DNA of 64,000 nucleotides from Minisyncoccota bacterium (GTDB lineage Bacteria > Patescibacteriota > Minisyncoccia > Phycocordibacterales > UBA2100), in the NCBI GenBank assembly GCA_031291875.1, contig JARLIE010000165.1:1119-65118 (forward strand). Direction: 5' to 3'. The notes beneath the pieces were generated by a model, which was not told the origin of the DNA, ran no database searches, and was given only the letters and a program-made list of their open reading frames with translations. This document shows positions 7,403 to 50,741 of the stretch, one piece after another (position 1 is the first letter of the stretch; each line of letters starts with the position of its first letter). The translations under genes were made by a program, and so were the position numbers.

Positions 7403-8974
7403 CTATACCGTATGAAGCTCGATTATGAAACGAGATCCCTTGTCCTTACCGTCGGATTCCGCCCAGATTTTGCCGCCCATGCCTTCGATGAAGGTTTTGG
7501 CTAAGTAGAGGCCCAAGCCAGTCCCTAAGAGGTTCATCTTTTGTGCATCAGCTCGCGAGAACTTTTGAAAAAGATTCGAAATGGTTTCCTGCGGAATGCC
7601 CACGCCGGTGTCCGCAACCACAACCCGTGCCATGCCATTGCGCTTTTCGATCGAGACAGTGACACCGCCCGATTTGGTGTATTTAGTGGAATTGTCGATC
7701 AGGTTGCCGACTACTTCACGGAGTTTCGCTTCGTCGGCGTAGGTCATAAGCCCTGGGAAATCTATTTTGACGTCGAGACCCAGCCCTTTTTCGCGCGCGT
7801 GCGCCTTAAAGCCTTCGCCGATGCTCGCGATGGTTTTGCCGAGATCGATTGCGGCGACGTTGTAAGAAATTTGCCCGAGCTCGAGCTTGGATTTGTTGAG
7901 GAATTCTGAAATCAGCGAAAGCACGGTGTCGCCGTTGACCTGGATCTTTTCGGCGATGTCGCGCACTTGGTCGCTCACCTCCCCTGCGGTACCGTCGGCA
8001 AGAAGCGACGCATAGCCGCGCATCGCGGTAATTGGATTGCGGATTTCATGCGAAGCGAAGGACATGAATTCCGATTTTTCGTTGGACAGCCGTTCGATTT
8101 CTTCGCGCTGCTCCACCTCTTTGACGACACTGCGAACCATGAGCACGGAAAACGCGAGCACGAGACAAAAGACGCTCGCGTGGAAAAGTATTTGGGTGCC
8201 GCCAGTGGAGAGTACGACTTCAAGGAGGGTTGCGACGGAAAGCAGGAACGCCACGACCTCGGTCGCAAGTACTTTTACGTTGAGGAGGTGGTAGCGGAAT
8301 ATCGCATAAGCGGTGCAGGCAATAAGCGGGAAAATAAACAGTGCGGAAAGCGGCAAAAAGCGCGCGTCGTTGAATCCGGCAGGCAGAATGATATTGAAGG
8401 TGACGATGCACAGGAACGTGAGAAGTGTTCCGATACACATCATCAAAACTTGTCGTCGCTCGACGTCTTTGCTATTGACGACTTTGCGCACCAAAGTGAC
8501 GATGCCGGCGATAATAAATGCAAGGACAAGGATAGCGAAGAGCGCGATGCCCGGGCCATTTTGAATTTGTGTCACGACACCGGTAGCCGAGGTTGCTTGT
8601 ACCTGATCGAAAACCAGTGGCGTGAGTGTGAGTAGCGAAGTCAGCGCAACGATCGGTATGAGCACGAATTTGTAGGTTTTCGAAAACGGCACTTGGGATT
8701 CGGGAAATACATAGCACAGTTGAAAGAACGTGAACGCGTGCCAACAACCAATGAAAATGATTGCACGTACGATCCAAAGCCCGATGAGAGACGGCGTCGA
8801 TTGGTATTGTGCGTAATTCGCTGCACTCCAGAGGATTGTAATTAGCGAGAATGCGAGAAACGTGCGATTCGTGATACTGGCCTGGTTGTTGAAATAAATC
8901 GTAAAACCTAACAGGCCGATGCCGGCGGCGGTGATCCCCACCGAAAGAAGATCGAGATTGAATGCGAATATCAT
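7403..8974 (-). CDS. Sensor histidine kinase with a polytopic (about 8 TM) N-terminal sensor domain. No adjacent response regulator.
   Basis: H-box FASHEIRNPITAMRGYASLL and a C-terminal HATPase_c region (GGVTVSIEKRNG...DTGVGIP...GTGLGL). The ORF extends to 9073; the Met at 8974 gives a 4-nt overlap with the upstream gene. Confidence 0.85.
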   Translation of the reverse strand: MIFAFNLDLLSVGITAAGIGLLGFTIYFNNQASITNRTFLAFSLITILWSAANYAQYQSTPSLIGLWIVRAIIFIGCWHAFTFFQLCYVFPESQVPFSKTYKFVLIPIVALTSLLTLTPLVFDQVQATSATGVVTQIQNGPGIALFAILVLAFIIAGIVTLVRKVVNSKDVERRQVLMMCIGTLLTFLCIVTFNIILPAGFNDARFLPLSALFIFPLIACTAYAIFRYHLLNVKVLATEVVAFLLSVATLLEVVLSTGGTQILFHASVFCLVLAFSVLMVRSVVKEVEQREEIERLSNEKSEFMSFASHEIRNPITAMRGYASLLADGTAGEVSDQVRDIAEKIQVNGDTVLSLISEFLNKSKLELGQISYNVAAIDLGKTIASIGEGFKAHAREKGLGLDVKIDFPGLMTYADEAKLREVVGNLIDNSTKYTKSGGVTVSIEKRNGMARVVVADTGVGIPQETISNLFQKFSRADAQKMNLLGTGLGLYLAKTFIEGMGGKIWAESDGKDKGSRFIIELHTV

Positions 8975-10017
8975 ACGGCGAGTAGCCCGGGAGGCTTTCT
9001 GTTCGATCGCGCGGTCGCGGGCCGGATCGGTTCCCCTATGCGCAGGAGCATGGCGATCGTCCCCTCTTTGCATTCGAAGGCGTCGTAAATCACGCGACGG
9101 GCTTCAAGAATGCGCGCCTGTACGTCCGGTTCAAGCCTGATGTTCGAACCGAGGCGTAGATACTCGGCAAGGTAGAGTAACCCGGCGAGCGGTTGCGCCG
9201 CGAAGTCATCGTTTACAACTTTGAGCCATGCGCGCTCAAACGCTCTACCTGCGCTAATGTAATCGCGAGATTCTGTTCGATCGATGCTGATCGCGACGAT
9301 CGCGCCAGAGGATGCATAAACTGCGGCATTACTCTTTGCGGCCATGGAGGCGAAGCCAATCGCGTTCAGTGCTCGCATAATCGGCCAATACTTGATGAGT
9401 TTGAAAAGAAACTGGATCGGAGGTGGTAATTCCGTGGTTTTGATATACAAACCGGGCTCGCCATTTTTGTTCTTATGCGCGTCCCATAGAATGCTCTGGA
9501 AGAAAAAATAGTGCAGCTCCTTCGTTCGCAACGCGGCCTCTTCCATCATGCTGACGGCGTTCGCGATCGCTTCAATACGTTTACGATCAGTAACAACGTT
9601 TATGTGTGCACTGCCGACTTCTAGTGCACGCAGCCCATCAAGTATCTCTTCAGAGATCTCCGTTTTATAGGCGCCTCGATTGGTGTGCCGCTTTGCAACG
9701 GCGTCGATCAGTGGATGGTTCGGGCGAATATGACCAACAAATTTCACGATTGCCGCAGCATGCGTGTCGAGCGGCGACGATACATCGCACAAGAGCCCCT
9801 CGTGTTCGGCTGCGATCAATAGGTTTTCGATTACTGCGCCGAGAGAAAGATAGGTTCCTCGAGATTCAACATTGAGGATAGCGTGATCGCGTTCCGGATG
9901 CACGAATATATCGATTTCGTCGTCGTGCGCGCGGAACGACCACGGCTGTGAGTTGTCGCCGGAGGGAGCTTGTACTGCTGCACGAAGGATGCGTTCGAGA
10001 CGATCCTGTTCGATCAT
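8971..10017 (-). CDS. Tandem nitroreductase-fold (FMN-dependent oxidoreductase-like) protein.
   Basis: N-terminal RILRAAVQAPSGDNSQPWSF (nitroreductase signature). A second half begins at KRHTNRGAY. 348 aa, about 1.5-2x the length of a single nitroreductase domain. Confidence 0.65.
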   Translation of the reverse strand: MIEQDRLERILRAAVQAPSGDNSQPWSFRAHDDEIDIFVHPERDHAILNVESRGTYLSLGAVIENLLIAAEHEGLLCDVSSPLDTHAAAIVKFVGHIRPNHPLIDAVAKRHTNRGAYKTEISEEILDGLRALEVGSAHINVVTDRKRIEAIANAVSMMEEAALRTKELHYFFFQSILWDAHKNKNGEPGLYIKTTELPPPIQFLFKLIKYWPIMRALNAIGFASMAAKSNAAVYASSGAIVAISIDRTESRDYISAGRAFERAWLKVVNDDFAAQPLAGLLYLAEYLRLGSNIRLEPDVQARILEARRVIYDAFECKEGTIAMLLRIGEPIRPATARSNRKPPGLLAV

Positions 10018-11126
10018 AATTCGAGACCAATTTTTCCGAGGAAATCTTTGCGAGCAGCTTCGCGATCCGCTCGCCCGTCGGCATAGCTGGGATCCAATAT
10101 CGCGTCGAAATTAACTTCGCATTTTGCGCTCATAAGCGGTCGCTTGAGTGCGAGCTGCTTGAGGGCGTAGGCGATCGCGACGCCAGAGAGCGTGGCGGCG
10201 TCCACCAGTTGCGGCCACGAGTAGATGGTCTTTCCCACTTCGAGCAGTGAAGACATCATACGTGGAACAATAAAACCGGGACCTGCGATTTTCGTAGCTA
10301 GTTTCGGCAGCTCCGTTGGCGGAAACGATTTGAATTCGTCGATAGTGATGTCACCGATCGCTCCGTTGAAAAGCGATGCGTTTTTATCCAGATCAAATCG
10401 ATCGGCTTCAAAGATAATGTTGTCGCCGTTATCTGTTGCCATAATGACCGGAATCCCTCGGGCGCGCGCTTCCAAGCGAAGGCGAATCTTCATCTCGAGG
10501 TTGTCTGTCTCTTCGACAAGCACGTCTATATCCGACAAGAATGCATCCATATTCTCGGCTGAGACACCGTCTGCAAATGCTTCCACGTGCGCGTACGGGT
10601 CGAGCTGATAGATGTATTCGCGCGCAAGATCGCACTTCTTGCGGCCGACGGCGAGAAAGTCAAAGCGAATGCGATTGAGGTTGGAGGGCGAAACAGTGTC
10701 TGGATCGGCGATTTTTATTCGTTGTCCGCCGCCGAGGTGGGCGAACGTAAAGAGTCCGTGGCTGCCGACGGATAATCCTGCGTAGGCGACGCGCAGTCCA
10801 TAGAGTGCCTGCTGCTCTTCGGCAGTGATGATATTTCGATTGCGCGCGGTGCGGAGCTCCAGGTGTTCGGCCTCGGGCAAGTAGTGTGCGAGCACACCGT
10901 TCCAGGGGAAGTAAAACCATTCGCCGAAGGATGGGTTTGCTCGCTTATACTCTTCCGTAAAGGCGGCAAGCTCCGCTTTGTACTCACGGACAAATTTGAA
11001 TCGCGGGTTGCGAATCAAGAAAAGATCTTCCAGTAAATCGTCGTACGCGTCTATGATGTGCGTTGGTTCGGTTCGTTCTTTAAAGGCTTCTAACGATTCC
11101 CCTGAAGGGTTATATCTCTCCGGCAT
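10014..11126 (-). CDS. E1-like adenylyltransferase (ThiF/MoeB/HesA family) with a ~90 aa N-terminal extension.
   Basis: Rossmann motif LRVAYAGLSVGSHG and ADPDTVSPSNLNRI, equivalent to the ThiF VDxDxVxxSNLNRQ region. An RxR..ITAEEQQAL lead-in resembles the MoeB/ThiF start. A C-terminal CxxC is absent. Confidence 0.7.
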   Translation of the reverse strand: MPERYNPSGESLEAFKERTEPTHIIDAYDDLLEDLFLIRNPRFKFVREYKAELAAFTEEYKRANPSFGEWFYFPWNGVLAHYLPEAEHLELRTARNRNIITAEEQQALYGLRVAYAGLSVGSHGLFTFAHLGGGQRIKIADPDTVSPSNLNRIRFDFLAVGRKKCDLAREYIYQLDPYAHVEAFADGVSAENMDAFLSDIDVLVEETDNLEMKIRLRLEARARGIPVIMATDNGDNIIFEADRFDLDKNASLFNGAIGDITIDEFKSFPPTELPKLATKIAGPGFIVPRMMSSLLEVGKTIYSWPQLVDAATLSGVAIAYALKQLALKRPLMSAKCEVNFDAILDPSYADGRADREAARKDFLGKIGLEL

Positions 11127-11153: not shown

Positions 11154-12692
11154 CTACTGAGTACGAATTACCCACTTTTGCTTGATGTCGCGACGAAAGT
11201 ACGTCGGATCCTCGTGCGGCCAAAAGAGTAGGCGGGGTATCGCGCGATCTCCCAGGAAGGTAAAGAGTTCCTGGAACTCGCCATTTTTCTCGCAAAGATT
11301 TTTGACGATCTCACTCGAGAGCTGCGCGCTGAAAGCCTGGCTTGCCTCTTTGCCATCATGCATCTCGATATTGATCTCTAAGTATTGGTCATTCGCATCG
11401 CTGAATTTCGTCATGAGTGTAAAGCGGCCGGTCAGGAATGCAGCGTATGGTTCCTGGAGCAGAGTTTCGCGAATTGTTTCGGGATAAATCTGTAAGCCGT
11501 AGAGGGTCGTGGAAAGATCCGAGCGCTCATACACGTAGACGAACGGAAGTTTCGCGAGTTTCGAATCGATTTTGTTAGCACGCATCTTCTTTTCCAAATC
11601 GATTCCGTGATTCTCGAAGATGTCGGTGATTTGCTTGAATGAAAACACCCCGCCATTATCGCCGATCGAATAGCGGCAAAGCGGCATCGCGCTGTCCCCT
11701 GTCACATACAGCTGCCCATCAACACATTCGAAATGAGTGAATTCCGACGTGTACTGGGCGAGTGTCGGCGTCTTTGAAATATCGCCAAAAAGGGCTTTAA
11801 AGAGCGCCGGTTTCTCTGCTGCGATTCGTCTTATCAAGATAGAGAGCGGCGTTTCGGCGGCCATCGTACCGAGATCAGCACTGCCGTAGATGTTCATCGT
11901 ATCGGTCAGCGGATTTTTGATGTTCGTTTTTGCAATAACGTAGTCGCGGAATTGCTCGGTGAATGCCTCGGCGGCAAATACAATACCGAACTTGTACTTC
12001 GAGAGTGAGATCCCTGTGGCGATTGCGTCGTCGATCACGTCTTTAATGAATGGCGGATAGCCGGCAAGAATAACCTGGTCGTAATTCGGAGCGAGCTGTT
12101 CAAGCGCTTTTAGAATTTCACTCTTGTTGATGCCCGGCGTTATGACGGATATCGGATGGCCTCGCCGACCCAGCAGTTGAAATGCTTGGTAGGTCAATAG
12201 CCCGCCAATCCATACACCCATACCAAAACAGACAATGATAAGCGTTGGTTTCGATTTTGAGAGCGAGCTTTGTAGAAAAAATCGCTCGTGAATTAACGCC
12301 GATTGCTCATCCACGGTAAATGAGCGCGCGAAGTAAAACGGCTTTCCTGTGGAACCTGACGTCGAGGTCATGACGTGCGGTACAGCAAGCGTGCCTCCCC
12401 AAAATAGTTCCTTGTAGGGATACGCGCGCAAGTAGGAGTCCTTACTCATGACCGGCACTCGGTCGAGTTCGGCATCATTCTTTATGGTTGCCGCAACAAT
12501 AGAGCGGCTCTTGAGGAATTTTTTGTATGCCGGCACTTCAGCCGCCATCCGCTTGAAAAGACTCAAAACGGGGGAGGGGCTTTCCTGAAGCGTTTTCGTA
12601 GCGACCGGCTTCTTTTTTGGAGCTAGTGTTCGACTCATACTGACGGAGAAATTATAACACGGATACTGCCTCCTTGTCGAGTACCTGCTCAA
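11154..12692 (-). CDS. Adenylate-forming enzyme of the phenylacetate-CoA ligase / coenzyme F390 synthetase / CapK family.
   Basis: P-loop-like AMP motif MTSTSGSTGKPFYF. PaaK-like N-terminal region (VPAYKKFL...DRVPVMSKDSYLRAYP). 512 aa; the true start may be the internal Met (MAAEV...). Confidence 0.65.
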   Translation of the reverse strand: MSRYSTRRQYPCYNFSVSMSRTLAPKKKPVATKTLQESPSPVLSLFKRMAAEVPAYKKFLKSRSIVAATIKNDAELDRVPVMSKDSYLRAYPYKELFWGGTLAVPHVMTSTSGSTGKPFYFARSFTVDEQSALIHERFFLQSSLSKSKPTLIIVCFGMGVWIGGLLTYQAFQLLGRRGHPISVITPGINKSEILKALEQLAPNYDQVILAGYPPFIKDVIDDAIATGISLSKYKFGIVFAAEAFTEQFRDYVIAKTNIKNPLTDTMNIYGSADLGTMAAETPLSILIRRIAAEKPALFKALFGDISKTPTLAQYTSEFTHFECVDGQLYVTGDSAMPLCRYSIGDNGGVFSFKQITDIFENHGIDLEKKMRANKIDSKLAKLPFVYVYERSDLSTTLYGLQIYPETIRETLLQEPYAAFLTGRFTLMTKFSDANDQYLEINIEMHDGKEASQAFSAQLSSEIVKNLCEKNGEFQELFTFLGDRAIPRLLFWPHEDPTYFRRDIKQKWVIRTQ

Positions 12693-13704
12693 TGGCCCCT
12701 ACAACTGCCGCCATATGCTCCGGTGCCGGGATCGCGAAACGCAGCGTTTCGCGCAGTAGTTCCTTCGCCGTATCGTCCCATGTCTTTCGCTCCCCCGCGC
12801 TCACTCGTATGCCAGCACTTGCCAAGGATTCGCAAATTTCATTTGCACGAGAATGGCGAGTCAAAATAAAATTACAAGACGATGGATAGACGAGCAGGTG
12901 AGGAAAGCGAGCAAGCGCCGTTGCGAAAACAGCACGCTGCTCGATGATGAGTGCTTTGCGCTGCTGGAGCTCACTAACTCGAGAAAGGACTATGTTTGCC
13001 GCATAGACGCTCGGCCCCGGAATGATCCAGGGCAAGGTGCCAAATAGATCTGAACGTAGTTCTTCAGCGATTTCGCGGCTCGTGATGGCGTATCCGACCC
13101 GAATCCCGGGGACGCCGAATGCTTTGGATAATGTACGCAGCACGATAACCGGTTGCTGCGCAACGGCTTGCAGAGCGCTCGAGCCTCCATATTCACCGTA
13201 GGCCTCATCACTAACGACTAACACACCGACCTCACGGGCTGCTGAGAGTATCTGGGAAAACGCACTATCTCCTAACGTGCTGCCGAGCGGATTGTTGGGT
13301 TCGCACAAGAACACAACGTCGACTTCCTTGTTGCGGATGCATTGTAGGGTTTCTTCGAGCGGAAATACGAATGTCCCGTCTTGCTCGCGGTAGTACAAGC
13401 GCACCGTTTCGAGCGGCGTCTCCATCAATACTTTTTCATAGCCGGAAAAGGTCGGCAAAATGAGGAGCGTGCGATAGCGACGCTTCGCGCAATACCGAAC
13501 GGTGGCTCGAATGGCTTCGTCAGAACCAGGTGTTAAGCACACGCTCTCTTGCGGAACGCCGGCGTACGTCGCGATATTTGCCGTGAGCTCGTCGTAGGAT
13601 GGATAGGTGGAGAACGCGGAGCGCGGCATGTTGCGCAAGAGCGCAAGCGTGTCGTCGTCGAGTAACCAATAGCTCTCGTTCAGATCGAGCGGAATGATTT
13701 CCAT
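12652..13704 (-). CDS. PLP-dependent class I/II aminotransferase (HisC/CobD-like).
   Basis: LDLNESYW start region, CEPNNPLG motif, and LRTLSKAFGVPGIRVGY (PLP lysine). The ORF extends to 13836; the Met at 13704 gives a 4-nt overlap with the upstream gene. Confidence 0.75.
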   Translation of the reverse strand: MEIIPLDLNESYWLLDDDTLALLRNMPRSAFSTYPSYDELTANIATYAGVPQESVCLTPGSDEAIRATVRYCAKRRYRTLLILPTFSGYEKVLMETPLETVRLYYREQDGTFVFPLEETLQCIRNKEVDVVFLCEPNNPLGSTLGDSAFSQILSAAREVGVLVVSDEAYGEYGGSSALQAVAQQPVIVLRTLSKAFGVPGIRVGYAITSREIAEELRSDLFGTLPWIIPGPSVYAANIVLSRVSELQQRKALIIEQRAVFATALARFPHLLVYPSSCNFILTRHSRANEICESLASAGIRVSAGERKTWDDTAKELLRETLRFAIPAPEHMAAVVGAIEQVLDKEAVSVL

Positions 13705-13706
13705 GA

Positions 13707-14195
13707 TCACGATCTGGCAAATGCGATACCGATATAGGCAACAATCAGCCACCAGAGCTCGTAGGAGGATCCGAAAATATTCTGTGTTTGCGAGCTGAAG
13801 TGCCAAATGGACGCGAGTGATCCGACCTGCATCCAAATACAGACGAGCACGACCGTCGTTGAAACGCCGACGAGAATTCCTGCAAGCGGAGAGCTCGATT
13901 CGGAAAAGCTCATAGTTGCTCGAATGAAAAGTATGAGCAGGATGATTTCAATCGCTAGGAAGACGAGTGCTTGTGGCAACCCGGCGTGGAATTGGCGCAC
14001 GATTGAGCCGAGCAAAAACGCGTTCGGTGCAACCGAAAAGAGAGTCACCGCTACGGGAAGCGAGAGCGAAAGCGCTGTGGCGATACTGGTGCCGCGCAGC
14101 ATGCTGAAAATAGTAATAAGAATGGCGATCGAACCGATAATGATCCAATCCGAAGGAACCCCGGAGGCAATCTGGGTCATCGACTGAAAATCCAT
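13707..14195 (-). CDS. Small polytopic membrane protein (about 4 TM), unknown function.
   Basis: 162 aa, hydrophobic throughout. It starts 9 nt downstream of the dnaJ stop. Confidence 0.5.
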   Translation of the reverse strand: MDFQSMTQIASGVPSDWIIIGSIAILITIFSMLRGTSIATALSLSLPVAVTLFSVAPNAFLLGSIVRQFHAGLPQALVFLAIEIILLILFIRATMSFSESSSPLAGILVGVSTTVVLVCIWMQVGSLASIWHFSSQTQNIFGSSYELWWLIVAYIGIAFARS

Positions 14196-28596: not shown

Positions 28597-28851
28597 CTAC
28601 CGAACGCCTTCGTCGAAAAGAATCTCGTGTTTTCTTTCAATACCACCGCGATTGTAACCTCGCATACTGCCGTCACTCGCGATGACGCGGTGGCACGGGA
28701 TCGAAGGATCGTAGTTGGAGCGCATAACTGCGCCGACGGCTCGCGCTGCTTTCGGATTACCCGCTCTCGTCGCTACTTCTTTGTAGGTCATCGTCTTCCC
28801 TTTGGGAATTTTTCGGACGATGTCGCGGACTTTGTCTGCAATAGTTTTCAT
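28597..28851 (-). CDS. Stand-alone O6-alkylguanine-DNA alkyltransferase C-terminal (DNA-binding/active-site) domain protein.
   Basis: IPCHRVI active-site motif and an MGMT-type helix-turn-helix. The ~84 aa form starts at the internal Met with a 4-nt overlap; the ORF extends to 28962. Confidence 0.65.
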   Translation of the reverse strand: MKTIADKVRDIVRKIPKGKTMTYKEVATRAGNPKAARAVGAVMRSNYDPSIPCHRVIASDGSMRGYNRGGIERKHEILFDEGVR

Positions 28852-29663
28852 ATACCGAGTGTTGCGCGCTGATCCGGTTGTTCCATCGCCTGCTTCTTTG
28901 CCTTCGCTTGGAATGGGATCAACTTCTTGCCCACTGCTTCGCGGTAGCGGCAGTAATCGCAATCTGCAGACGACTCGGGCAACTCGTCGCTATCTAAACA
29001 AGTCTTAATTGCGACCAGCGTTCCTTCAACCCACGAATCGTCGCCGCTGTACGGAATAAGCGTAAGTTCGAACTCGAGCTTTCCGTCGAACGCCTCTTTG
29101 TCTTTGCTGGCATTTGCATATACCCAGTAGCCTGTATTTGAAACCGTAAATCCATTCTGGCGCAAAAGCCACTGATAGACCTCGATCTGGCGCTTGTAAC
29201 CGTCGTGCCAGGCTTCGTCGAGCGATTCTATTTTTCCATCCTTGCTCGTAGCCTTGTAGTCGACTACGATTAATTCATCGTTGGGCGTTACCCAGATATC
29301 GTCGACGCCGCCGCAGACAGTGAGTCCGGTGTGGTGTTCGCAGACTATGCCGCCGCGCAGCGAGTCGCGCCACTCGTCCATTTGTGTATGGGCGAATGGA
29401 ACGGCGTCGAGCCCGTAGGCTTTCATCAGCGGGTGTGCCGATTTTGCGGCACGATGCGCGTCGAATTCTTTTTTAAGGAGCGCGTCGACTGCCGAGTTGA
29501 GGTTAAAAGGAAAACCCGGCGGCCGAGCCGTGCCGAGCTTGTTGTCGATATAAAAGCAGCGCTTGCAGTCCAAGAAAAGCGAGATTTTCGAACGCGAAAG
29601 ACGGAAATGTTTGCCGCCGTAGTTCCAATTGTGGTTGCGGTCGGGCTTGTAGTAACCACTCAT
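28848..29663 (-). CDS. Cas4-like / RecB-family PD-(D/E)xK nuclease with a predicted 4-Cys iron-sulfur cluster.
   Basis: N-terminal CKRC, central ...VVDYKATSK (D-x-K of PD-(D/E)xK) and a C-terminal CDYCRY. 271 aa. No CRISPR context. Confidence 0.6.
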   Translation of the reverse strand: MSGYYKPDRNHNWNYGGKHFRLSRSKISLFLDCKRCFYIDNKLGTARPPGFPFNLNSAVDALLKKEFDAHRAAKSAHPLMKAYGLDAVPFAHTQMDEWRDSLRGGIVCEHHTGLTVCGGVDDIWVTPNDELIVVDYKATSKDGKIESLDEAWHDGYKRQIEVYQWLLRQNGFTVSNTGYWVYANASKDKEAFDGKLEFELTLIPYSGDDSWVEGTLVAIKTCLDSDELPESSADCDYCRYREAVGKKLIPFQAKAKKQAMEQPDQRATLGI

Positions 29664-30220
29664 CGCGTGAGTATACCACTCCCTCCATTTTGACGCTCAA
29701 AATCACTCTCAATTGAGCCTTCGTGCGCCGCAAACCAATGCTTAAAACGATTTTCTATGTACCACATGCCGGTGAGAACAATGAGCGTTAGCAACGCGGA
29801 AAAGACAGAAACAGAGTACATGCCAAAACCAACCGCCATACCGATTGCCGTTGCAATCCAAAGGCACGCCGCAGTGGTGACTCCATGAACCGTGTCGCCC
29901 CGGAAAATAATCAATCCAGCGCCGATAAAACCGATGCCCGTCACGATACCGGGCGCGAGTTGAAGCGGCTGGATATTGACGACGCCTAGATAAACGCTGT
30001 CGACGTAGTTGGTAATCAGAATGAAAAGGCAGGCGCTCATCGCGACGAGTCCGAACGTGCGCATGCCGGCAGGCTGACGAGCGAATAATGCTCGTTCGGT
30101 ACCTATGATGCCTCCCAAAAAGAGCGCGAGCATCAACTTCACAAACATAACGGCAGTAGGATCGATGAGAAGCGCGGGTCCCGTTATCATAGGCAAAAGT
30201 ATATCATTCAAATACCGCAC
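29660..30220 (-). CDS. mgtC: MgtC/SapB-family membrane protein.
   Basis: 186 aa; 4-5 TM with the MgtC-like N-terminal conserved region (...GGIIGTERALFARQPAGMRTFGLVAMSA...). Confidence 0.7.
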   Translation of the reverse strand: MRYLNDILLPMITGPALLIDPTAVMFVKLMLALFLGGIIGTERALFARQPAGMRTFGLVAMSACLFILITNYVDSVYLGVVNIQPLQLAPGIVTGIGFIGAGLIIFRGDTVHGVTTAACLWIATAIGMAVGFGMYSVSVFSALLTLIVLTGMWYIENRFKHWFAAHEGSIESDFERQNGGSGILTR

Positions 30221-31032
30221 AAGAGGCGTGCCTCATCGAGTACTTTCGGGACCCGATCGGGCTTTACTCCGTATTCTTGCAGGAGGTGCGAGGTCGTCAC
30301 GCTTTTGCAGAGCACAACCTTATTGTCGAGTAATCGTCGTTTCTCGCCCTCACTGAGGGAGGTGAGGCAGGTGATCGGATGCACTTTTCCCTCTTCGATC
30401 ATCGCGAGTAGGCCTCGAGTGCGGGGATAATCCCAGCCCAAGAGAGTGAGGTTTGAACAGCGAGCGTACCGAATTGCATTTCGAGTGAACGTGGTATTCG
30501 TAACCAGCCAGCCTTCGTCGACGCGCGACGAAGCAAGTGGCGCCTGACGGAGGTCGTCGTAGCGCGCTTTGACGTAGAGCGCATCTTTGACGTCAGTCTT
30601 CCCTCCCGGGTCGTTGTGAAATTTTGCCTCGATGCCGATGCGTCTGCCCTGTTTTTCTGCGAGTACATCCACCTCATGAGAAACGCAGCGGCCGGTAAGT
30701 GTTACCTCTGCTTTCGCGCTCCAGCCGTTCGAACGCAGGACTTCGGCAAGAAACGATTCAAACGGGTAGCCAGAGGGGCCCAGCGCGAAGACCGCTCGCT
30801 TGATTGAATAGCGGGCGGCGACCGGCGGAACTTCTTCGTTCTTTAGCGTTTCGAATGCGTGGCGATAGATATCTTCCGTACGTACTCCCGGGTGAATCTC
30901 ACTGAGAACTTTCGCGAGAACACGCGCGCGTGCCGTCGAAGATGCACCGGCGAGCTGCAGTGAGTGTTCAAGCTTTGCCGGATCAAACGGCTCCTGTGTT
31001 CCATCTGCCTTGGTAATAAGAGGATGCGTCAT
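30208..31032 (-). CDS. ATP-cone domain fused to a restriction-endonuclease-like (Mrr_cat-type PD-(D/E)xK) domain.
   Basis: N-terminal ITKADGTQEPFDPAKLEHSL...EDIYRHAFETL is ATP-cone-like. The C-terminal region contains EVDVLAEK...RIGIEAKF (D...E-x-K). The ORF extends to 31194; the internal Met gives a 4-nt overlap. Confidence 0.55.
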   Translation of the reverse strand: MTHPLITKADGTQEPFDPAKLEHSLQLAGASSTARARVLAKVLSEIHPGVRTEDIYRHAFETLKNEEVPPVAARYSIKRAVFALGPSGYPFESFLAEVLRSNGWSAKAEVTLTGRCVSHEVDVLAEKQGRRIGIEAKFHNDPGGKTDVKDALYVKARYDDLRQAPLASSRVDEGWLVTNTTFTRNAIRYARCSNLTLLGWDYPRTRGLLAMIEEGKVHPITCLTSLSEGEKRRLLDNKVVLCKSVTTSHLLQEYGVKPDRVPKVLDEARLLCGI

Positions 31033-31445
31033 AGCGATGATGAAGAAGCAGCGACGTCGGTGATGATGGTTATCGGCAAAGGCTTTCCGTCGAGTGTCGC
31101 TACAAATTGAACGCCTGTTGCCGGCGCAAGCGCAACCGCCTGAAATGCTCGCGGCGCCGGCGCTTTCGGACAATCGATAGAGGGATCTTGCCAACTCTGA
31201 AACGCGAGCAAATATTCGGTATCGGAAACTTTCTGCGTGGCCACACTAAGCTCGTCACAGGAAAGCGGCAATACCAGTATGCCACTCAAACTGTGCGTTC
31301 CCGGAGTTACGATGTCGTGGATAGCGAGTACGCCGGGATTTTGCGCTTGCAAAAGGGCGAAGTTTCCAAGAACAACGAATATCGCAAAGAAGGCCGCGGT
31401 CGCGACGATAGCGAACCAGACGAGTCGTCGGACCGTGTCCATCAT
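31029..31445 (-). CDS. Hypothetical membrane-anchored protein.
   Basis: Single N-terminal TM (LVWFAIVATAAFFAIFVVLG) followed by a soluble domain. Start inferred at MMDTV. Confidence 0.4.
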   Translation of the reverse strand: MMDTVRRLVWFAIVATAAFFAIFVVLGNFALLQAQNPGVLAIHDIVTPGTHSLSGILVLPLSCDELSVATQKVSDTEYLLAFQSWQDPSIDCPKAPAPRAFQAVALAPATGVQFVATLDGKPLPITIITDVAASSSSL

Positions 31446-37430: not shown

Positions 37431-38153
37431 ATGACACCCGCGCCGATCATCTTTCTTATCGCGATCGCAACCTGCTGCTCAACCTTGCTTGGCGGCTCGT
37501 TCGCTTTGCGTCTCAAGGACCATCTCCATTTGATTTTGGGCTTTAGCGCTGGCGCCGTTATCGGTGTCGCTTTTTTTGATCTGATGCCGGAATCGTTACA
37601 ATTGGCCACGACCTCGTATCCGATATCTGCGATCGTTTCATTGATGGCGCTCGGTTTTCTGACCTACCTCGTCCTCGATCGAATGGTGAGTCTGCATTCG
37701 CATACTGAAGAAGAAAATAGCAGCCGAGAAAATGCTGGCGCAACTACCCTTTCCGTCCACAGTTTCCTCGACGGCGTGGGTATCGGACTAGGCTTCCATG
37801 TATCGGCCGCGATCGGTGCAGTTGTTGCAGCAGCTGTTTTGGCACACGATTTTTCGGACGGTATCAACACGGTAAATATGGTATTGAAAAACGGTGGCGA
37901 CCGATCAAAAGCATTTCGGTGGCTCGTGGTGGACGCTATTGCCCCGGTTGCAGGGGTCGCGATCACCTTCTTTGTCTACGTCGCGCAAGCGGAGCTCGGA
38001 TTATTGCTCGCGCTCTTTGCGGGATTCTTCCTCTATATCGGCGCAAGCGATCTTATTCCTGAGAGTTACCACGAACATCCGGTGCGCCTAACCACGGTGA
38101 TGACAGTGCTCGGTGCGGCGGTGATTTACGCGATCATTGCAATCGCAGGATAA
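37431..38153 (+). CDS. ZIP-family (ZupT-like) divalent metal transporter.
   Basis: HSFLDGVGIG and LAHDFSDG motifs with 8 TM. The ORF opens at 37407. Confidence 0.8.
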   Translation: MTPAPIIFLIAIATCCSTLLGGSFALRLKDHLHLILGFSAGAVIGVAFFDLMPESLQLATTSYPISAIVSLMALGFLTYLVLDRMVSLHSHTEEENSSRENAGATTLSVHSFLDGVGIGLGFHVSAAIGAVVAAAVLAHDFSDGINTVNMVLKNGGDRSKAFRWLVVDAIAPVAGVAITFFVYVAQAELGLLLALFAGFFLYIGASDLIPESYHEHPVRLTTVMTVLGAAVIYAIIAIAG

Positions 38154-42193: not shown

Positions 42194-42427
42194 GTGAAAC
42201 AAGAAGCCCATGCCACAGATGCGAGCGACTTTCCGGTTGCCTTTAGCTCCGAACATGCCCACGATAATACGCGAGGGCCGGTCGTTTCTGTGGCAGAATA
42301 TAGAAAGCTCGCTGCGGACGAAACGAGCAGCGATGATGACATCCGACGGCGATTGCAATACTTGGAAGCGCTGTGTAGGCATGTGATCCGAGAGGAACTC
42401 AAAAAATATGTCGATGAACAAAATTGA
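42194..42427 (+). CDS. Small acidic hypothetical protein upstream of, and overlapping, the recombinase start. A recombination directionality factor role is possible.
   Basis: 77 aa ORF. It overlaps the recombinase ATG by 20 nt. Confidence 0.3.
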   Translation: MKQEAHATDASDFPVAFSSEHAHDNTRGPVVSVAEYRKLAADETSSDDDIRRRLQYLEALCRHVIREELKKYVDEQN

Positions 42428-44189
42428 AAAAGAAATGCAGCAGCTCGTACAGAACGCCAATCGCTATGTTGGCAGAGAAGGCCTTGTTTATGCGCGTGTC
42501 TCGAGTAAACGGCAAGAGTTAGAAGGTCACGGACGCGAAGGGCAGGAGGAACGCTGTAAGCAGGATTTGCGGTCAGTTGGCGTACCCTATTGCCGCACAT
42601 TCCCCGACACTTTCACCGGCGCTGGCGACTTTATGAAGCGTCCAGCAATGCGCGAGATGCTGGCGTACATAGACTCCAATCCGCACAAAAAATACGTAGT
42701 GGTATTCGATGATCTAAAACGATTTGCGCGAGATGTTGAAGCGCATATCAAATTAAGAGCGGCCTTCAAGTTCCGAGATGTTGAATTACGCTGCCCCAAC
42801 TACAATTTCGATGAGACTGAAGAGGGAGAGTTCGCAGAAATTATATTTGCCGCCCAAGCACAGCTTGAGCGCAAGCAAAATCGGCGTCAGGTCATCCAAA
42901 AAATGAAAGCTCGCCTAGAGCTTGGATACTGGCCCTTTGCCGGTCGTAGAGGATACGACATGGTCAAAGACCCTATGCACGGCAGATTGCATGTTCCAAA
43001 CAAGGAGGGCAAAACAATTATGCGGCAGGCACTTGAGGACTTCGCCTCAGGCAATCTGGTACGCAGAGTTGATGTTGCGCGTTTTCTCTTCGATCGCGGC
43101 TTCTGGAAAAAGTCAAAGAGAACTCCCGAGCATTTCATCGACGACGCCACGGCGATGTTGCAGGACGTATTTCACGCGGGCTACGTTGAATATCCTAAGT
43201 GGGGCGTGTCGCGCCGCAAAGGTCGGCATAAAGGAATAATCTCGTTGGATACACACGAGCTCATACAGAAACGATTGAAAAAGGACGTCGCCAGCGCGCG
43301 TATTCGATTGGATATATCGCCAGAGTTTCCCTTGCGCGGATTGCTTGTATGTCCTGACTGCAAAGAAAAGCTCACCGGCGCACCCTGCAAAGGTGGCCCT
43401 AAAAAATACAGCTACTATTACTGCAAAAATAAAAAATGCGCCCTTTATTCCAAGATGTTGCGAAAGGCAGATGTGGAAAGGGACTTCAACAATCTGCTCC
43501 GCCGCAATCGCCTCAAGGCAGATCTAGATGCGGTCGTGGAGCTAACCTATGATCGGGTGTGGAAGCAGGAGGTCGTCGATGTAAGGCGACAACAAGCTCT
43601 CAAGGAGCAGCAACGAGAGGATTTGCAGCAAAAGATACGTGACCTTTCCGAGCTTGCCCGTACGACCACGTCAGCAACAGTAAAAAATGTCTACGAAAGC
43701 CAGATCGAAGAAGCCGCCAACGAGTTGGAACAAAAGGGGCCTGCAAACGCCTCAAAACGCGACCTCAGAGTGCCTTATCGAACTGCACTCGCTAAGTCGA
43801 CTGCTGTGCTGAAAAACCCAATAACCATATGGGAAAAGGTGGATGTGATGGAAAAACATCGCCTCTATTTTTTCCTTTTCGAGGCGCGTTTGCCTTACAC
43901 CAAAGGAGAGGGCTATCGAACTGGCGATTTACTAAGCAGCACAAGGGTTTTTGAGGAGTTTGCCAACGCAAACTCGGATGATGTGGACCTGAGGGGAATC
44001 GAACCCCTGCCTCCGCAATGCGAATGCGGCGTTTTACCACTGAACTACAGGCCCGAGTGTCGCAATATCCTATCAGCACTACCGGATATTTACAATTTAC
44101 TCGAGCCCGTTCGAAAACTCCTTAGCGAGCAGCCACTTTTACTTTCTCTCCGCAGCGCAAACAGCGAGTCTGCGCCAATCTTGTCTTGA
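42408..44189 (+). CDS. Large serine recombinase (resolvase/invertase N-terminal catalytic domain, recombinase domain and zinc ribbon).
   Basis: Catalytic region GLVYARVSSKRQ...; the resolvase fold; a later zinc-ribbon CPDCKEKLTG...YYYCKNKKC; and a coiled-coil. The last ~70 codons overlap an antisense tRNA-Ala and a small minus-strand ORF, so the C-terminus is uncertain. Confidence 0.8.
   Translation: MSMNKIEKEMQQLVQNANRYVGREGLVYARVSSKRQELEGHGREGQEERCKQDLRSVGVPYCRTFPDTFTGAGDFMKRPAMREMLAYIDSNPHKKYVVVFDDLKRFARDVEAHIKLRAAFKFRDVELRCPNYNFDETEEGEFAEIIFAAQAQLERKQNRRQVIQKMKARLELGYWPFAGRRGYDMVKDPMHGRLHVPNKEGKTIMRQALEDFASGNLVRRVDVARFLFDRGFWKKSKRTPEHFIDDATAMLQDVFHAGYVEYPKWGVSRRKGRHKGIISLDTHELIQKRLKKDVASARIRLDISPEFPLRGLLVCPDCKEKLTGAPCKGGPKKYSYYYCKNKKCALYSKMLRKADVERDFNNLLRRNRLKADLDAVVELTYDRVWKQEVVDVRRQQALKEQQREDLQQKIRDLSELARTTTSATVKNVYESQIEEAANELEQKGPANASKRDLRVPYRTALAKSTAVLKNPITIWEKVDVMEKHRLYFFLFEARLPYTKGEGYRTGDLLSSTRVFEEFANANSDDVDLRGIEPLPPQCECGVLPLNYRPECRNILSALPDIYNLLEPVRKLLSEQPLLLSLRSANSESAPILS
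43984..44054 (-). tRNA. tRNA-Ala (anticodon CGC) with the G3:U70 identity pair.
   Basis: The reverse complement folds as GGGCCTG TA GTT CAGTGGTAA AAC G CCGCA TTCGCAT TGCGG AGGC AGGGG TTCGATT CCCCT CAGGTCC A. The acceptor stem has the G3-U70 wobble. Confidence 0.8.
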
Positions 44190-50716: not shown

Positions 50717-50741
50717 ACCGCTGTCCATACGTGTCTTCATA

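What the first reader, a model, noticed from the sequence alone, without database searches (positions are those of the whole stretch)
10014..11126. E1-like enzyme with an N-terminal extension and no partner carrier protein nearby
The Rossmann/adenylation core begins around residue 115 (LRVAYAGLSVGSHG ... ADPDTVSPSNLNRI). The first ~90 residues (MPERYNPSGESLEAFKERTEPTHIIDAYDDLLEDLFLIRNPRFKFVREYKAELAAFTEEYKRANPSFGEWFYFPWNGVLAHYLPEAEH) have no counterpart in ThiF/MoeB. Comparable extensions in MccB and TOMM C-proteins bind substrate peptides. There is no terminal rhodanese domain and no C-terminal CxxC, arguing against a MoeZ or Uba4-type sulfurtransferase.
Basis: seen in the sequence. Interest (0 to 1): 0.6.

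Follow-up and report, generated by a model that had tools for sequence, protein, structure and literature searches.

The report
Split oxazolone-synthetase cyclase in a CPR bacterium
The "orphan" E1-like enzyme is the ATP-dependent cyclase half of a split oxazolone synthetase (like M. tuberculosis TrzS/TyzBC), which works on a small molecule and so needs no carrier protein; in ultra-small Patescibacteria it sits in a conserved, undescribed operon with a PaaK-like ligase and a seven-transmembrane sensor kinase.

Summary
ORF 10014..11126(-) encodes a 370-aa ThiF/E1-like protein. About 95 N-terminal residues lie outside the ThiF core. It has no rhodanese domain, no CxxC and no conserved Cys, and the 64-kb window holds no ThiS/MoaD-like gene.

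The interpretation (a peptide-binding extension as in MccB or TOMM C-proteins) is not supported. The protein and the nitroreductase-fold gene that overlaps its stop codon match the two halves of NCBIfam NF005901, the Rv1355c family. Rv1355c is TrzS, a characterised ThiF-cyclase/flavin-oxidase fusion. TrzS adenylates the carboxylate of an N-acyl amino acid, closes an oxazolone ring and desaturates it. TyzB/TyzC is the known split form. The N-terminal extension is a family-wide domain, also found in proteins that pass the NF005901 cut-off. It showed no RRE, PqqD or winged-helix match.

The new part is the context. In 80 species-level Patescibacteria genomes the pair sits in a fixed module: PaaK-like adenylate-forming ligase, ThiF, FDO, then a HisKA_7TM histidine kinase. 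An amino-acid dehydrogenase or aminotransferase often lies upstream. Fusions and rearranged loci keep the same set. The usual OxzA/TyzA-type acyltransferase was not found among the conserved neighbours.

Verdict: known enzyme kind, new pathway variant, possible signal-plus-sensor pair.

The parts
10014..11126 (-). ThiF/E1-like cyclase, 370 aa: the cyclase half of a split OxzB/TrzS-type oxazolone synthetase
   Evidence: NCBIfam NF005901 (Rv1355c family) E 3e-75, residues 12-351 matched to model positions 27-341 of 722. Pfam ThiF E 4.9e-20. AF2 model pLDDT 93.4. Foldseek matches to AclA, ThiF, MoeB, PaaA and MccB cores.
10839..11126 (-). Family-specific N-terminal domain (residues 1-96): alpha12-19, beta23-26, alpha28-39, alpha41-44, alpha50-63, beta69-73, beta78-82, then a helix leading into the R92-x-x-R95-N96 motif
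   Evidence: Conserved in 61 homologues. A profile of it finds 672 cluster representatives, and in the 150 listed the match lies near the N-terminus, or at 899-985 in P0192, where it directly precedes the ThiF domain. In all 10 representatives scanned with Pfam it directly precedes a ThiF domain. Alone it hits NF005901 positions 26-93, E 1e-5. No Pfam, PDB or Foldseek match.
10014..10838 (-). ThiF adenylation core (residues 97-370) with an intact nucleotide site: G117-L-S119-V-G121 loop, D141/D143, S148-N149-x-N151-R152, K164, D208; no catalytic Cys and no Zn site
   Evidence: These residues are 96-100% conserved in 86 diverse representatives. HMMER aligns D208 with the Asp of the 'DN' motif of SUMO E1. 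No conserved Cys or CxxC.
8971..10017 (-). [quoted passage not shown]
   Evidence: NF005901 model positions 373-713 of 722, E 2.4e-47. Acg family NF047509 E 8e-39. Its ATG overlaps the ThiF stop codon as ATGA. Adjacent or fused in 73 of 76 eligible genome loci.
11154..12638 (-). PaaK-like adenylate-forming ligase (likely start at M19 of ORF 11154..12692; 494 aa); proposed to supply the N-acyl amino acid
   Evidence: Family profile against the PDB: phenylacetate-CoA ligase 2y4o E 2e-15. TIGR02155 PaaK E 3e-10. Weak AMP-binding_C_2 and GH3_C hits in some members. Directly upstream of ThiF in 58 of 64 eligible loci and present in 64 of 64. Fused to ThiF in P0192.
12652..13704 (-). HisC/CobD-like class I/II PLP aminotransferase (likely start at M45 of ORF 12652..13836); accessory gene of the module in the Kaiserbacteria-like subset
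   Evidence: Pfam Aminotran_1_2 E 7e-36. TIGR01141 hisC scores 178 bits, below its cut-off of 276. Upstream of the PaaK-like gene in 13 of 55 eligible loci; a ScyB-like amino-acid dehydrogenase holds this position in 19 of 55.
7403..8974 (-). HisKA_7TM sensor histidine kinase (start ATG at 8974 overlaps the FDO stop codon as ATGA)
   Evidence: Pfam HisKA_7TM E 8.8e-14, HisKA, HATPase_c. ATGA overlap read directly. Next to the FDO in 57 of 59 eligible loci. Kept in the rearranged loci L086, L088, L089 and L090.
12651..12680 (-). Promoter-like site (TCGACA-18-TATAAT with TG, 11 of 12) just upstream of the PaaK-like start codon
   Evidence: This is a consensus match only; the total number of such sites in the region is not above the shuffled expectation.

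Best explanation
The 370-aa protein is the ATP-dependent cyclase subunit of a two-gene (split) oxazolone synthetase of the OxzB/TrzS/TyzBC kind. By homology, its ThiF core binds Mg-ATP (Gly loop at 117-121, D141, R152, K164, D208) and adenylates the free carboxylate of a small N-acyl amino acid. The amide oxygen then attacks the acyl-adenylate and closes a 5(4H)-oxazolone (azlactone) ring. The translationally coupled flavin-dependent oxidase encoded next door desaturates the C-alpha/C-beta bond using O2. No ubiquitin-like carrier, thioester or persulfide is involved, so there is no partner carrier gene, no conserved Cys, no CxxC and no rhodanese domain. The N-terminal ~95 residues form a domain specific to this enzyme family. 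It leads directly into the R-x-x-R-N motif at the start of the ThiF fold. By analogy with ThiF/MoeB/MccB dimers, I infer that it sits over the active site of the partner subunit and helps form the pocket for the acyl-amino-acid, or docks the oxidase.

In this lineage the usual acyl-CoA-dependent N-acyltransferase (OxzA/TyzA/TrzA) was not found among the conserved neighbours. I infer that the conserved upstream PaaK-like adenylate-forming ligase makes the N-acyl amino acid by ATP-dependent activation of a carboxylic acid. That acid would often derive from an aromatic amino acid through the accessory aminotransferase, ScyB-like dehydrogenase or MIO enzyme. I also infer that the co-transcribed seven-transmembrane histidine kinase senses the product or a related lipophilic cue.

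Shown here: family membership by sequence, the domain architecture, and conservation of the module. Inferred: the substrate, the role of the ligase, the role of the N-terminal domain, and what the kinase senses.
For: (1) The two adjacent ORFs match the two halves of NF005901 'Rv1355c family protein': residues 12-351 to model positions 27-341 (E 3e-75), and residues 3-342 of the next ORF to positions 373-713 (E 2.4e-47).
(2) Rv1355c is TrzS, shown biochemically to catalyse ATP-dependent cyclisation and then O2-dependent desaturation of N-acyl-Trp; the ThiF Asp variant D217A abolishes it (PMC12856293). TyzB plus TyzC are the characterised split form (PMC10404671). OxzB is the founding member (bioRxiv 10.1101/2020.06.11.147165).
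(3) ThiF and NTR are fused in 3 Patescibacteria loci (L064, L079, L081). L079 scores 452 bits on NF005901. P0136, a 743-aa fusion from the same kind of module, scores 534 bits, above the 476 cut-off.
(4) The window protein is 34-37% identical over about 300-340 residues, starting at residues 12-32, to proteins that pass the cut-off.
(5) The nucleotide-site residues are 96-100% conserved; there is no conserved Cys and no CxxC.
(6) The ThiF/FDO and FDO/HK junctions are ATGA overlaps.
(7) Module conservation in 80 species-representative genomes: FDO 73/76, HK 57/59, PaaK-like adjacent 58/64. The same gene set survives reordering (L086, L088, L089, L090) and occurs as the fusion P0192 = dehydrogenase + PaaK-like + N-domain-ThiF.
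(8) The PaaK-like family profile hits phenylacetate-CoA ligase at E 2e-15.
Against: Each half, and their sum (254 + 162 = 416 bits), lies below NCBI's equivalog cut-off of 476 bits, so this is a diverged subfamily and its substrate and product may differ. The gene that usually accompanies the family, an OxzA/TyzA/TrzA-type N-acyltransferase, was not found: none appears among the module genes or the 10 other window ORFs scanned with Pfam, and no further gene family is conserved in more than 24 of the 80 related loci. However, no TyzA/OxzA sequence was available as a query and the rest of the genome was not searched. Amide formation by the PaaK-like enzyme is not shown; it could simply be a CoA ligase. 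The position and role of the N-terminal domain could not be tested, because no multimer model and no model coordinates were available. No chemistry has been done on any Patescibacteria member.
Confidence: 0.75

Rival explanations
1. RiPP-type E1-like enzyme. The N-terminal extension would be an RRE or peptide clamp that binds a ribosomal peptide, and the ThiF core would adenylate that peptide's C-terminus or a side chain, as in MccB, PaaA, GrcB or IndF. The nitroreductase would act like a TOMM B-protein dehydrogenase.
For: MccB and PaaA also carry an N-terminal add-on of about 90 residues before the ThiF core, and both appear among the structural matches to the core (5ff5 E 1e-10, 3h9g E 2.4e-9). 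The order of secondary-structure elements in the N-domain (alpha-beta-alpha-alpha-alpha-beta-beta) loosely recalls a winged helix. E1-like plus nitroreductase-fold proteins do co-occur in TOMM clusters (my own knowledge).
Against: The N-domain gives no RRE, PqqD, MccB or winged-helix hit by Foldseek against the PDB (best E 2.2, TM < 0.25), by profile against PDB sequences or by Pfam. It instead belongs to the Rv1355c/TrzS family, whose characterised member and relatives act on small molecules. The module has no YcaO gene and no room for a precursor gene (ATGA overlaps and a 27-nt spacer). No small conserved ORF appears among the neighbour clusters. The oxidase is Acg/FDO-type, with no SagB or McbC family among its hits.
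Confidence: 0.05
2. Classical sulfur-carrier or ubiquitin-like-protein activating E1 (ThiF, MoeB, SAMP or TtuC type), with its carrier encoded elsewhere in the genome.
For: Weak matches to ThiF, MoeB and UbaA models (E 1e-17 to 1e-10) and to the ThiF and MoeB structures.
Against: All of these scores lie far below the family cut-offs (for example 61 bits against a cut-off of 159). No Cys is conserved, there are no Zn-binding CxxC pairs and no rhodanese domain. No plausible GG-terminated small ORF lies in the 64-kb window. The best match by more than 50 orders of magnitude is the Rv1355c family. The obligate neighbours are an FDO, a PaaK-like ligase and a kinase, not sulfur-transfer genes.
Confidence: 0.03
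3. Same enzyme pair and same first step (adenylation of a small-molecule carboxylate), but a different outcome from the known 2-alkyl-4-arylidene-oxazolones. The acyl-adenylate could be captured by another nucleophile to give a lactam, ester or amide. Or the substrate could be a pseudo-dipeptide built by the PaaK-like ligase from an arylpyruvate or aryl-acrylate and a second amino acid, giving a new heterocycle class.
For: This is a diverged subfamily below the NF005901 cut-off. The acyltransferase is replaced by a PaaK-like ligase. Three different enzymes acting at the alpha-amino group of (aromatic) amino acids are recruited or fused at the same position: a HisC-like aminotransferase, a ScyB-like dehydrogenase and a MIO lyase/aminomutase. 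Extra genes occur in subsets: a weakly methyltransferase-like gene and an alpha/beta hydrolase.
Against: The cyclase, FDO and N-domain architecture is fully retained, and one module member (P0136) passes the Rv1355c equivalog cut-off. The simplest expectation is therefore an oxazolone core.
Confidence: 0.15

Closest known systems
TrzS (Rv1355c, formerly 'MoeY') of M. tuberculosis / M. smegmatis; N-acyl tryptazolone synthase (PMC12856293)
   Same: Same N-terminal domain, ThiF core and Acg-like FDO, in the same order; both window ORFs have NF005901 as their best or second-best NCBIfam match. Conserved ATP-site Asp (D208 here; D217 in TrzS of M. smegmatis). No carrier protein.
   Different: The window version is split into two translationally coupled genes. 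It is only 34-37% identical to proteins that pass the family cut-off, and its summed score is below that cut-off. It lies next to a PaaK-like ligase and a 7TM histidine kinase, whereas trzS lies next to the TrzA acyltransferase and c-di-GMP genes.
TyzB (Rv2338c, ThiF-like, 318 aa) + TyzC (Rv2337c, FDO) of M. tuberculosis (PMC10404671)
   Same: Precedent for the split arrangement: a separate ThiF cyclase and FDO desaturase in one operon, making an N-acyl tyrazolone.
   Different: TyzB is about 50 residues shorter; I could not obtain its sequence to test whether it has the N-domain. The tyz cluster uses the TyzA acyl-CoA N-acyltransferase, which has a FeeM/AHL-synthase-like fold.
OxzB / OxzA of Pseudoalteromonas rubra (de Rond et al.; bioRxiv 10.1101/2020.06.11.147165)
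   Same: Founding ThiF-nitroreductase oxazolone synthetase; ATP-dependent; small-molecule substrate.
   Different: Fused protein; found in Proteobacteria; paired with the OxzA N-acyltransferase that uses acyl-CoA from beta-oxidation.
MccB / PaaA (RiPP E1-like enzymes with an N-terminal RRE 'peptide clamp')
   Same: An N-terminal add-on domain followed by a ThiF adenylation core that lacks a catalytic Cys and acts on a non-protein-carrier substrate. The cores are structurally similar.
   Different: The N-domain here shows no detectable RRE similarity. There is no precursor peptide. The partner is an FDO.
AclA of Tenacibaculum discolor (PDB 9egb, ThiF-type protein solved with substrate, 2025)
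   Same: Closest solved structure to the ThiF core (Foldseek E 1e-13, TM 0.82 normalised to the target).
   Different: About 250 aa with no N-terminal domain and 18% identity. I could not find a paper describing its function in the held library.
LuxM/LuxN-type synthase plus membrane histidine-kinase receptor pairs (quorum sensing; my own knowledge)
   Same: A small-molecule biosynthetic gene set is co-transcribed with a polytopic membrane histidine kinase that has no large extracytoplasmic domain.
   Different: There is no sequence relationship. A signalling role for the product here is purely inferred from gene linkage.

Membership tests
OxzB/TrzS/TyzBC-type oxazolone synthetase (NCBIfam NF005901 'Rv1355c family') | ThiF-like adenylation domain with an intact Mg-ATP site (Gly-rich loop, Asp of the 'DN' motif, Arg/Lys phosphate ligands) | tested here: met
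   G117, S119, G121, D141, D143, N149, N151, R152, K164 and D208 are 96-100% conserved in 86 representatives. Pfam ThiF E 4.9e-20. D208 aligns with the DN-motif Asp of SUMO E1.
OxzB/TrzS/TyzBC-type oxazolone synthetase (NCBIfam NF005901 'Rv1355c family') | Acg-like tandem nitroreductase-fold flavin-dependent oxidase, fused to or encoded next to the ThiF domain | tested here: met
   ORF 8971..10017 matches NF005901 positions 373-713 (E 2.4e-47) and the Acg family (E 8e-39). ATGA overlap with the ThiF gene. Adjacent or fused in 73/76 loci.
OxzB/TrzS/TyzBC-type oxazolone synthetase (NCBIfam NF005901 'Rv1355c family') | Family-specific N-terminal region preceding the ThiF core (model positions ~10-95) | tested here: met
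   The N-domain alone hits NF005901 positions 26-93 (E 1e-5). Proteins found with the N-domain profile pass the cut-off, at 485-775 bits.
OxzB/TrzS/TyzBC-type oxazolone synthetase (NCBIfam NF005901 'Rv1355c family') | Score at or above the curated equivalog cut-off (476 bits) | tested here: not met
   253.9 bits (ThiF half) plus 161.6 bits (FDO half) give 415.5 bits. The fused Patescibacteria form L079 scores 452. P0136, from the same module type, scores 534 and passes. The window pair is a diverged relative, not an NCBI-defined equivalog.
OxzB/TrzS/TyzBC-type oxazolone synthetase (NCBIfam NF005901 'Rv1355c family') | Adjacent OxzA/TyzA/TrzA-type acyl-CoA N-acyltransferase that supplies the N-acyl amino acid | tested here: not met
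   The module neighbours are a PaaK-like ligase, an aminotransferase and a kinase. Ten other window ORFs scanned with Pfam show no acyltransferase. Unbiased clustering of the 80 loci finds no further gene family in more than 24 loci. Caveats: no TyzA/OxzA sequence was available as a query, TyzA may lack a Pfam model, and the rest of the genome was not searched.
OxzB/TrzS/TyzBC-type oxazolone synthetase (NCBIfam NF005901 'Rv1355c family') | ATP-dependent cyclisation and O2-dependent desaturation of an N-acyl amino acid to an oxazolone | not testable with these tools
   Biochemical property; shown only for OxzB, TyzBC and TrzS (papers cited above).
RiPP E1-like enzymes with RRE (MccB, PaaA, GrcB, TOMM C/F proteins) | N-terminal PqqD-like RRE (peptide clamp) fold | tested here: not met
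RiPP E1-like enzymes with RRE (MccB, PaaA, GrcB, TOMM C/F proteins) | Precursor-peptide gene (and, for TOMMs, a YcaO gene) in the cluster | tested here: not met
   Gene junctions are ATGA overlaps or a 27-nt spacer. No conserved small ORF or YcaO-sized family appears among the neighbour clusters of the 80 loci.
Sulfur-carrier / UBL-activating E1 (ThiF, MoeB, MoeZ, Uba4, UbaA) | Conserved cross-over-loop Cys and/or Zn-binding CxxC pairs; rhodanese domain in the MoeZ/Uba4 type | tested here: not met
   No Cys column above 33% and no CxxC in 61 homologues. ThiF is the only Pfam domain.
Sulfur-carrier / UBL-activating E1 (ThiF, MoeB, MoeZ, Uba4, UbaA) | Beta-grasp carrier protein with a C-terminal Gly-Gly | tested here: inconclusive
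   No plausible GG-ended ORF in the 64-kb window or among the conserved neighbours. The rest of the genome was not examined.
PaaK / ANL adenylate-forming enzymes (for the upstream 494-aa protein) | N-terminal adenylation domain with the Ser/Thr/Gly-rich phosphate-binding loop, homologous to PaaK | tested here: met
   Profile against PaaK 2y4o E 2e-15 over positions 17-266. In the conserved 'TSTSGSTGxPF' loop, S112, G113 and G116 are invariant and T111, S114, T115 and P118 are at least 90% conserved. Scores against PaaK equivalog models are far below cut-off (39 against 646 bits), so it is PaaK-like and not PaaK.

The most novel reading that the evidence does not exclude
The conserved Patescibacteria module is a self-contained small-molecule signalling cassette. 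Its order is (amino-acid dehydrogenase, aminotransferase or MIO enzyme), PaaK-like ligase, ThiF cyclase, FDO, then a 7TM histidine kinase, with CheY-like regulators in some lineages. In this reading, an azlactone/oxazolone-type compound is built without CoA from scavenged aromatic amino acids, and the co-transcribed seven-transmembrane kinase is its receptor. That would be a quorum- or host-sensing system in ultra-small episymbiotic bacteria. It would also give oxazolones, whose physiological role is an acknowledged open question (PMC12856293), a first concrete function.
Probability: 0.3. Interest if true: 0.8.

Novelty: new variant of a known kind. Interest (0 to 1): 0.55.

Why it matters
For the finding as posed, the matter is settled. 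An E1-like enzyme without a carrier is expected for this family, and the 'ThiF family adenylyltransferase' annotations in these genomes can be made more specific.

The wider value is in the context.

1. Genome-reduced Patescibacteria generally lack most biosynthesis. Yet across many lineages (Paceibacterota, and the Kaiser-, Wolfe-, Lipton-, Lloyd-, Magasanik- and Doudnabacteria) they keep a multi-gene pathway of the oxazolone type.

2. The pathway appears to have swapped the acyl-CoA N-acyltransferase for an ATP-dependent PaaK-like ligase. If so, this is a different route to the N-acyl amino acid, and a possible new biocatalyst.

3. The module is linked almost invariably to a 7TM sensor kinase, and the link survives gene reordering. 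This gives a directly testable hypothesis for what oxazolones are for. The groups that characterised the mycobacterial enzymes state that this question is unresolved.

Tried and rejected

2. Carrier protein. The scan for GG-terminated ORFs in all six frames found only short ORFs that I judged by eye to be non-coding.

The same queries did recover receivers in other loci, later confirmed by Pfam.

4. N-acyltransferase in the window. Pfam scans of the module genes and of 10 further ORFs found none. I had no TyzA/OxzA sequence to search with directly.

5. AclA (PDB 9egb), the best structural match. Three literature searches did not find its paper, so its function is not used as evidence.

6. TcdA-like tRNA ct6A dehydratase. 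Only 23 bits against a cut-off of 304; rejected.

7. TyzB. I could not obtain its sequence, so whether the shorter TyzB has the N-domain remains open.

8. I ran no further search on the PaaK-like family. The PDB profile hit already fixes its superfamily.
Full report
**Observation**

An identical protein is on record from a Candidatus Pacebacteria metagenome-assembled genome, annotated only as 'ThiF family adenylyltransferase'.

- Pfam recognises one domain, ThiF, over residues 95-230.
- Structural matches of an AlphaFold2 model (pLDDT 93.4, pTM 0.92) to ThiF, MoeB, PaaA and MccB align only about 260 columns, which is the core.
- The first ~95 residues are therefore an extension with no counterpart in ThiF or MoeB.
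- There is no rhodanese domain. None of 61 homologues has a CxxC motif, and no Cys column exceeds 33%.
- A six-frame scan of the 64-kb window for ORFs ending in Gly-Gly gave five short ORFs. Judged by eye, none looks like a real carrier gene.

**What it is**

NCBIfam gives a decisive match. Residues 12-351 align to positions 27-341 of the 722-position model NF005901, 'Rv1355c family protein' (E 3e-75). The next best model (PRK08223) scores 1e-23, and ThiF, MoeB and UbaA models score 1e-17 or worse.

The downstream ORF 8971..10017 (348 aa, nitroreductase fold) aligns to positions 373-713 of the same model (E 2.4e-47). It also matches the Acg family of FMN oxidoreductases (E 8e-39). Its ATG overlaps the stop codon of the E1-like gene as ATGA. 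The two genes are therefore the two halves of a split Rv1355c-type protein.

**What is known about that family**

Rv1355c was formerly annotated 'MoeY'. Kleetz et al. [quoted passage not shown] They showed the following.

- It carries out ATP-dependent cyclisation and then O2-dependent desaturation of N-acyl-tryptophan, giving N-acyl tryptazolones.
- The D217A variant (ThiF ATP site) and the R540A variant (FDO) lose the respective activities.

Grigg et al. (J Biol Chem 2023, PMC10404671) characterised the split version. TyzB is a 318-aa ThiF homologue and TyzC is the FDO; with the acyltransferase TyzA they make C12:0-tyrazolone. The founding member is OxzB of Pseudoalteromonas rubra, paired with the N-acyltransferase OxzA (de Rond et al., bioRxiv 10.1101/2020.06.11.147165). 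[quoted passage not shown]

This explains why the window enzyme has no carrier protein, no catalytic Cys and no Zn site. Its substrate is the free carboxylate of an N-acyl amino acid.

**The N-terminal extension**

The extension is highly conserved among 61 Patescibacteria homologues. Conserved motifs are LLEDLFLIRNPRFKF, GEWFYFPWN and HYLP..EH.E.RTARN. It folds confidently both in the full model and alone (pLDDT 92; alpha12-19, beta23-26, alpha28-39, alpha41-44, alpha50-63, beta69-73, beta78-82, alpha85-95).

A profile of residues 1-96 was searched against 1.84 billion representative proteins.

- It found 672 proteins at E <= 1e-3.
- Among the best 150, 60 are 301-450 aa (stand-alone ThiF size), 23 are 651-820 aa (ThiF-FDO fusion size), 63 are 300 aa or shorter (probably fragments), 1 is 451-650 aa and 3 are longer than 820 aa.
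- In all 10 representatives scanned with Pfam, the match directly precedes a ThiF domain.
- Six hits tested against NF005901 pass its curated cut-off of 476 bits, at 485-775 bits.
- The 96-residue domain alone matches NF005901 positions 26-93 (E 1e-5).
- D26, P41, G68, W70, P74, W75, R92, R95 and N96 are 93-100% conserved across 86 diverse representatives.

The extension is therefore a hallmark domain of this enzyme family, including proteins that pass the Rv1355c-family cut-off.

It is not detectably an RRE or peptide clamp.

- Foldseek of the isolated domain against the PDB gave nothing better than E 2.2 with TM < 0.25.
- A profile search of PDB sequences gave only noise.
- Pfam gave nothing.

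In ThiF, MoeB and MccB dimers, the N-terminal segment of one subunit completes or covers the active site of the other (PMC12596934). The domain here runs straight into the R-x-x-R-N motif that opens the ThiF fold. From these two facts I infer that it helps build the pocket for the acyl-amino-acid, or docks the oxidase. This is inference, not a result.

**Surroundings**

The window genes run, on the minus strand, in this order:

1. a HisC/CobD-like aminotransferase (12652..13704)
2. a PaaK-like adenylate-forming enzyme (11154..12638)
3. the ThiF-like cyclase (10014..11126)
4. the FDO (8971..10017)
5. a HisKA_7TM histidine kinase (7403..8974)

A 27-nt spacer separates genes 2 and 3. Genes 3/4 and 4/5 share ATGA overlaps. 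A strong promoter-like site lies just before the PaaK-like start codon. It is a consensus match only.

I fetched the 80 best of 192 related loci from species-representative genomes, called ORFs and searched them with the window proteins. Counts are for loci with enough flanking DNA to judge.

| Neighbour | Result |
|---|---|
| FDO adjacent or fused to ThiF | 73 of 76 |
| 7TM kinase next after the FDO | 57 of 59 |
| PaaK-like gene immediately upstream of ThiF | 58 of 64 |
| PaaK-like gene anywhere in the locus | 64 of 64 |
| Dehydrogenase directly upstream of the PaaK-like gene | 19 of 55 |
| HisC-like aminotransferase directly upstream of the PaaK-like gene | 13 of 55 |

- ThiF and FDO are fused in three loci.
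- The dehydrogenase is a Glu/Leu/Phe/Val-type amino-acid dehydrogenase. Its best NCBIfam match is the tryptophan dehydrogenase ScyB, at 283 bits, below the cut-off of 600.
- Thirteen loci carry CheY-like single-domain response regulators, most of them upstream of the module.
- Ten loci have a gene of about 310 aa, weakly methyltransferase-like, between the FDO and the kinase.
- Unbiased clustering of all flanking ORFs found no other gene family in more than 24 loci.

The record titles span Paceibacterota and the Kaiser-, Wolfe-, Lipton-, Lloyd-, Magasanik- and Doudnabacteria.

**Independent support for functional coupling**

- P0192 (1242 aa) is a single polypeptide combining an amino-acid dehydrogenase, the PaaK-like domain (residues 395-875) and the N-domain plus ThiF (908-1237). 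Its locus reads FDO, this fusion, an alpha/beta hydrolase, then the 7TM kinase.
- P0174 (924 aa) fuses the N-domain and ThiF to a MIO-type aromatic amino-acid lyase/aminomutase. It is followed by the PaaK-like gene, the FDO and the 7TM kinase.
- L089 has the order ThiF, PaaK-like, 7TM-GAF kinase, a 279-aa gene, then a response regulator.
- L090 has the order dehydrogenase, PaaK-like, fused ThiF-FDO, kinase, kinase. That fusion (P0136) passes the Rv1355c cut-off at 534 bits.

The same gene set persists through fusion and reordering, which argues for one pathway.

**The PaaK-like protein**

Its family profile matches phenylacetate-CoA ligase (2y4o) at E 2e-15 over the N-terminal adenylation domain. 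That region includes the conserved TSTSGSTGxPF phosphate loop. Some members give weak AMP-binding_C_2 and GH3_C hits. All PaaK equivalog models score far below their cut-offs.

**Proposed mechanism**

Shown here: family membership, domain architecture, conservation of active-site residues, and conservation of the module.

Taken from the literature on homologues: ATP-dependent adenylation of the carboxylate of an N-acyl amino acid, ring closure to a 5(4H)-oxazolone, and FMN/O2-dependent C-alpha/C-beta desaturation.

Inferred:

- The PaaK-like ligase replaces the acyl-CoA-dependent OxzA/TyzA/TrzA acyltransferase. It would activate a carboxylic acid with ATP and couple it to an amino acid.
- The accessory aminotransferase, dehydrogenase or MIO enzyme all act at the alpha-amino group of (aromatic) amino acids. 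They would supply that acid, or the amino acid, from scavenged amino acids.
- The 7TM kinase senses the product or a related membrane-soluble cue.

**Rivals**

There is no RRE signal, no room for a precursor gene, no YcaO, and the oxidase is Acg-type.
- A sulfur-carrier E1 is unlikely. There is no Cys, Zn site or rhodanese, scores are far below cut-offs, and the neighbours are wrong.
- A real alternative remains: same first step, different product. The pair is below the equivalog cut-off and the upstream chemistry differs.

**Comparison and novelty**

The enzyme itself is a diverged, split member of a family characterised between 2021 and 2025, so the finding as posed is explained by existing knowledge.

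The Patescibacteria module is not described in the held literature. Searches combining oxazolone, ThiF or nitroreductase with Patescibacteria or CPR terms listed no paper connecting them. The undescribed features are the PaaK-like ligase in place of the acyltransferase, recurrent recruitment of enzymes that act on amino acids, and near-obligate linkage to a 7TM histidine kinase.

I rate it a new variant of a known kind, with interest 0.55. The most novel reading is a CoA-independent azlactone signal with its own receptor kinase in ultra-small bacteria. I give that reading a probability of about 0.3; it would merit about 0.8 if true.

Noticed in passing
window 42408..44189 (+), within the lower-GC stretch ~38000-44000: A large serine recombinase (Resolvase N-terminal domain plus Zn_ribbon_recom, 593 aa), followed by a 416-aa ORF with no Pfam match. 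GC drops to 0.50 here, against 0.52-0.56 in most of the rest of the window. This may be an integrated mobile element or prophage remnant.
   Followed up: partly
window 12651..12680 (-): A near-consensus sigma-70-like promoter (TCGACA-18-TATAAT with an extended -10 TG, 11 of 12). It lies in the last codons of the aminotransferase gene, about 13 nt before the likely PaaK-like start. The ligase-cyclase-oxidase-kinase genes may therefore be transcribed separately from the aminotransferase.
   Followed up: no
L005 10224-11135; L007 12127-13155; L010 4218-5147 (10 of 80 loci): A gene of about 310 aa is inserted between the FDO and the 7TM kinase in a subset of lineages. Its hits to SAM-methyltransferase Pfam models are weak and below cut-off. 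It may be a tailoring enzyme.
   Followed up: partly
L044 7241-8460 (three in tandem); L040 7953-8381; L052 7996-8388; L070 8030-8479: One to three CheY-like single-domain response regulators lie directly upstream of the PaaK-like gene in Wolfebacteria/Liptonbacteria-type loci. The window itself has no receiver domain detectable with CheY/PhoB queries.
   Followed up: partly
P0192 (locus L086 6001-9729) and P0174 (locus L088 153-2927): Two natural fusions. P0192 combines an amino-acid dehydrogenase, the PaaK-like ligase and the N-domain plus ThiF in 1242 aa. P0174 combines the N-domain, ThiF and a MIO aromatic amino-acid lyase/aminomutase in 924 aa. In L086 an alpha/beta hydrolase sits between the fusion and the kinase.
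   Followed up: partly
window 30208..31194 (-): A 328-aa ORF that combines an ATP-cone domain with an Mrr_cat restriction-endonuclease domain, next to a PD-(D/E)XK nuclease ORF (28848..29663). This pairing is unusual.
   Followed up: no
window 13707..14195 (-): A 162-aa predicted membrane protein with no Pfam or NCBIfam match lies between dnaJ and the aminotransferase. It is conserved at this position in the closest Kaiserbacteria-like loci (L001, L006, L007, L008, L031, L038). Whether it belongs to the module is unknown.
   Followed up: partly
window 49646..50905 (-) and 54344..55360 (-): There may be two MreB-type actin homologues about 4 kb apart in this small genome. The first has a strong Pfam MreB_Mbl match. 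The second was recognised only from its N-terminal sequence.
   Followed up: no
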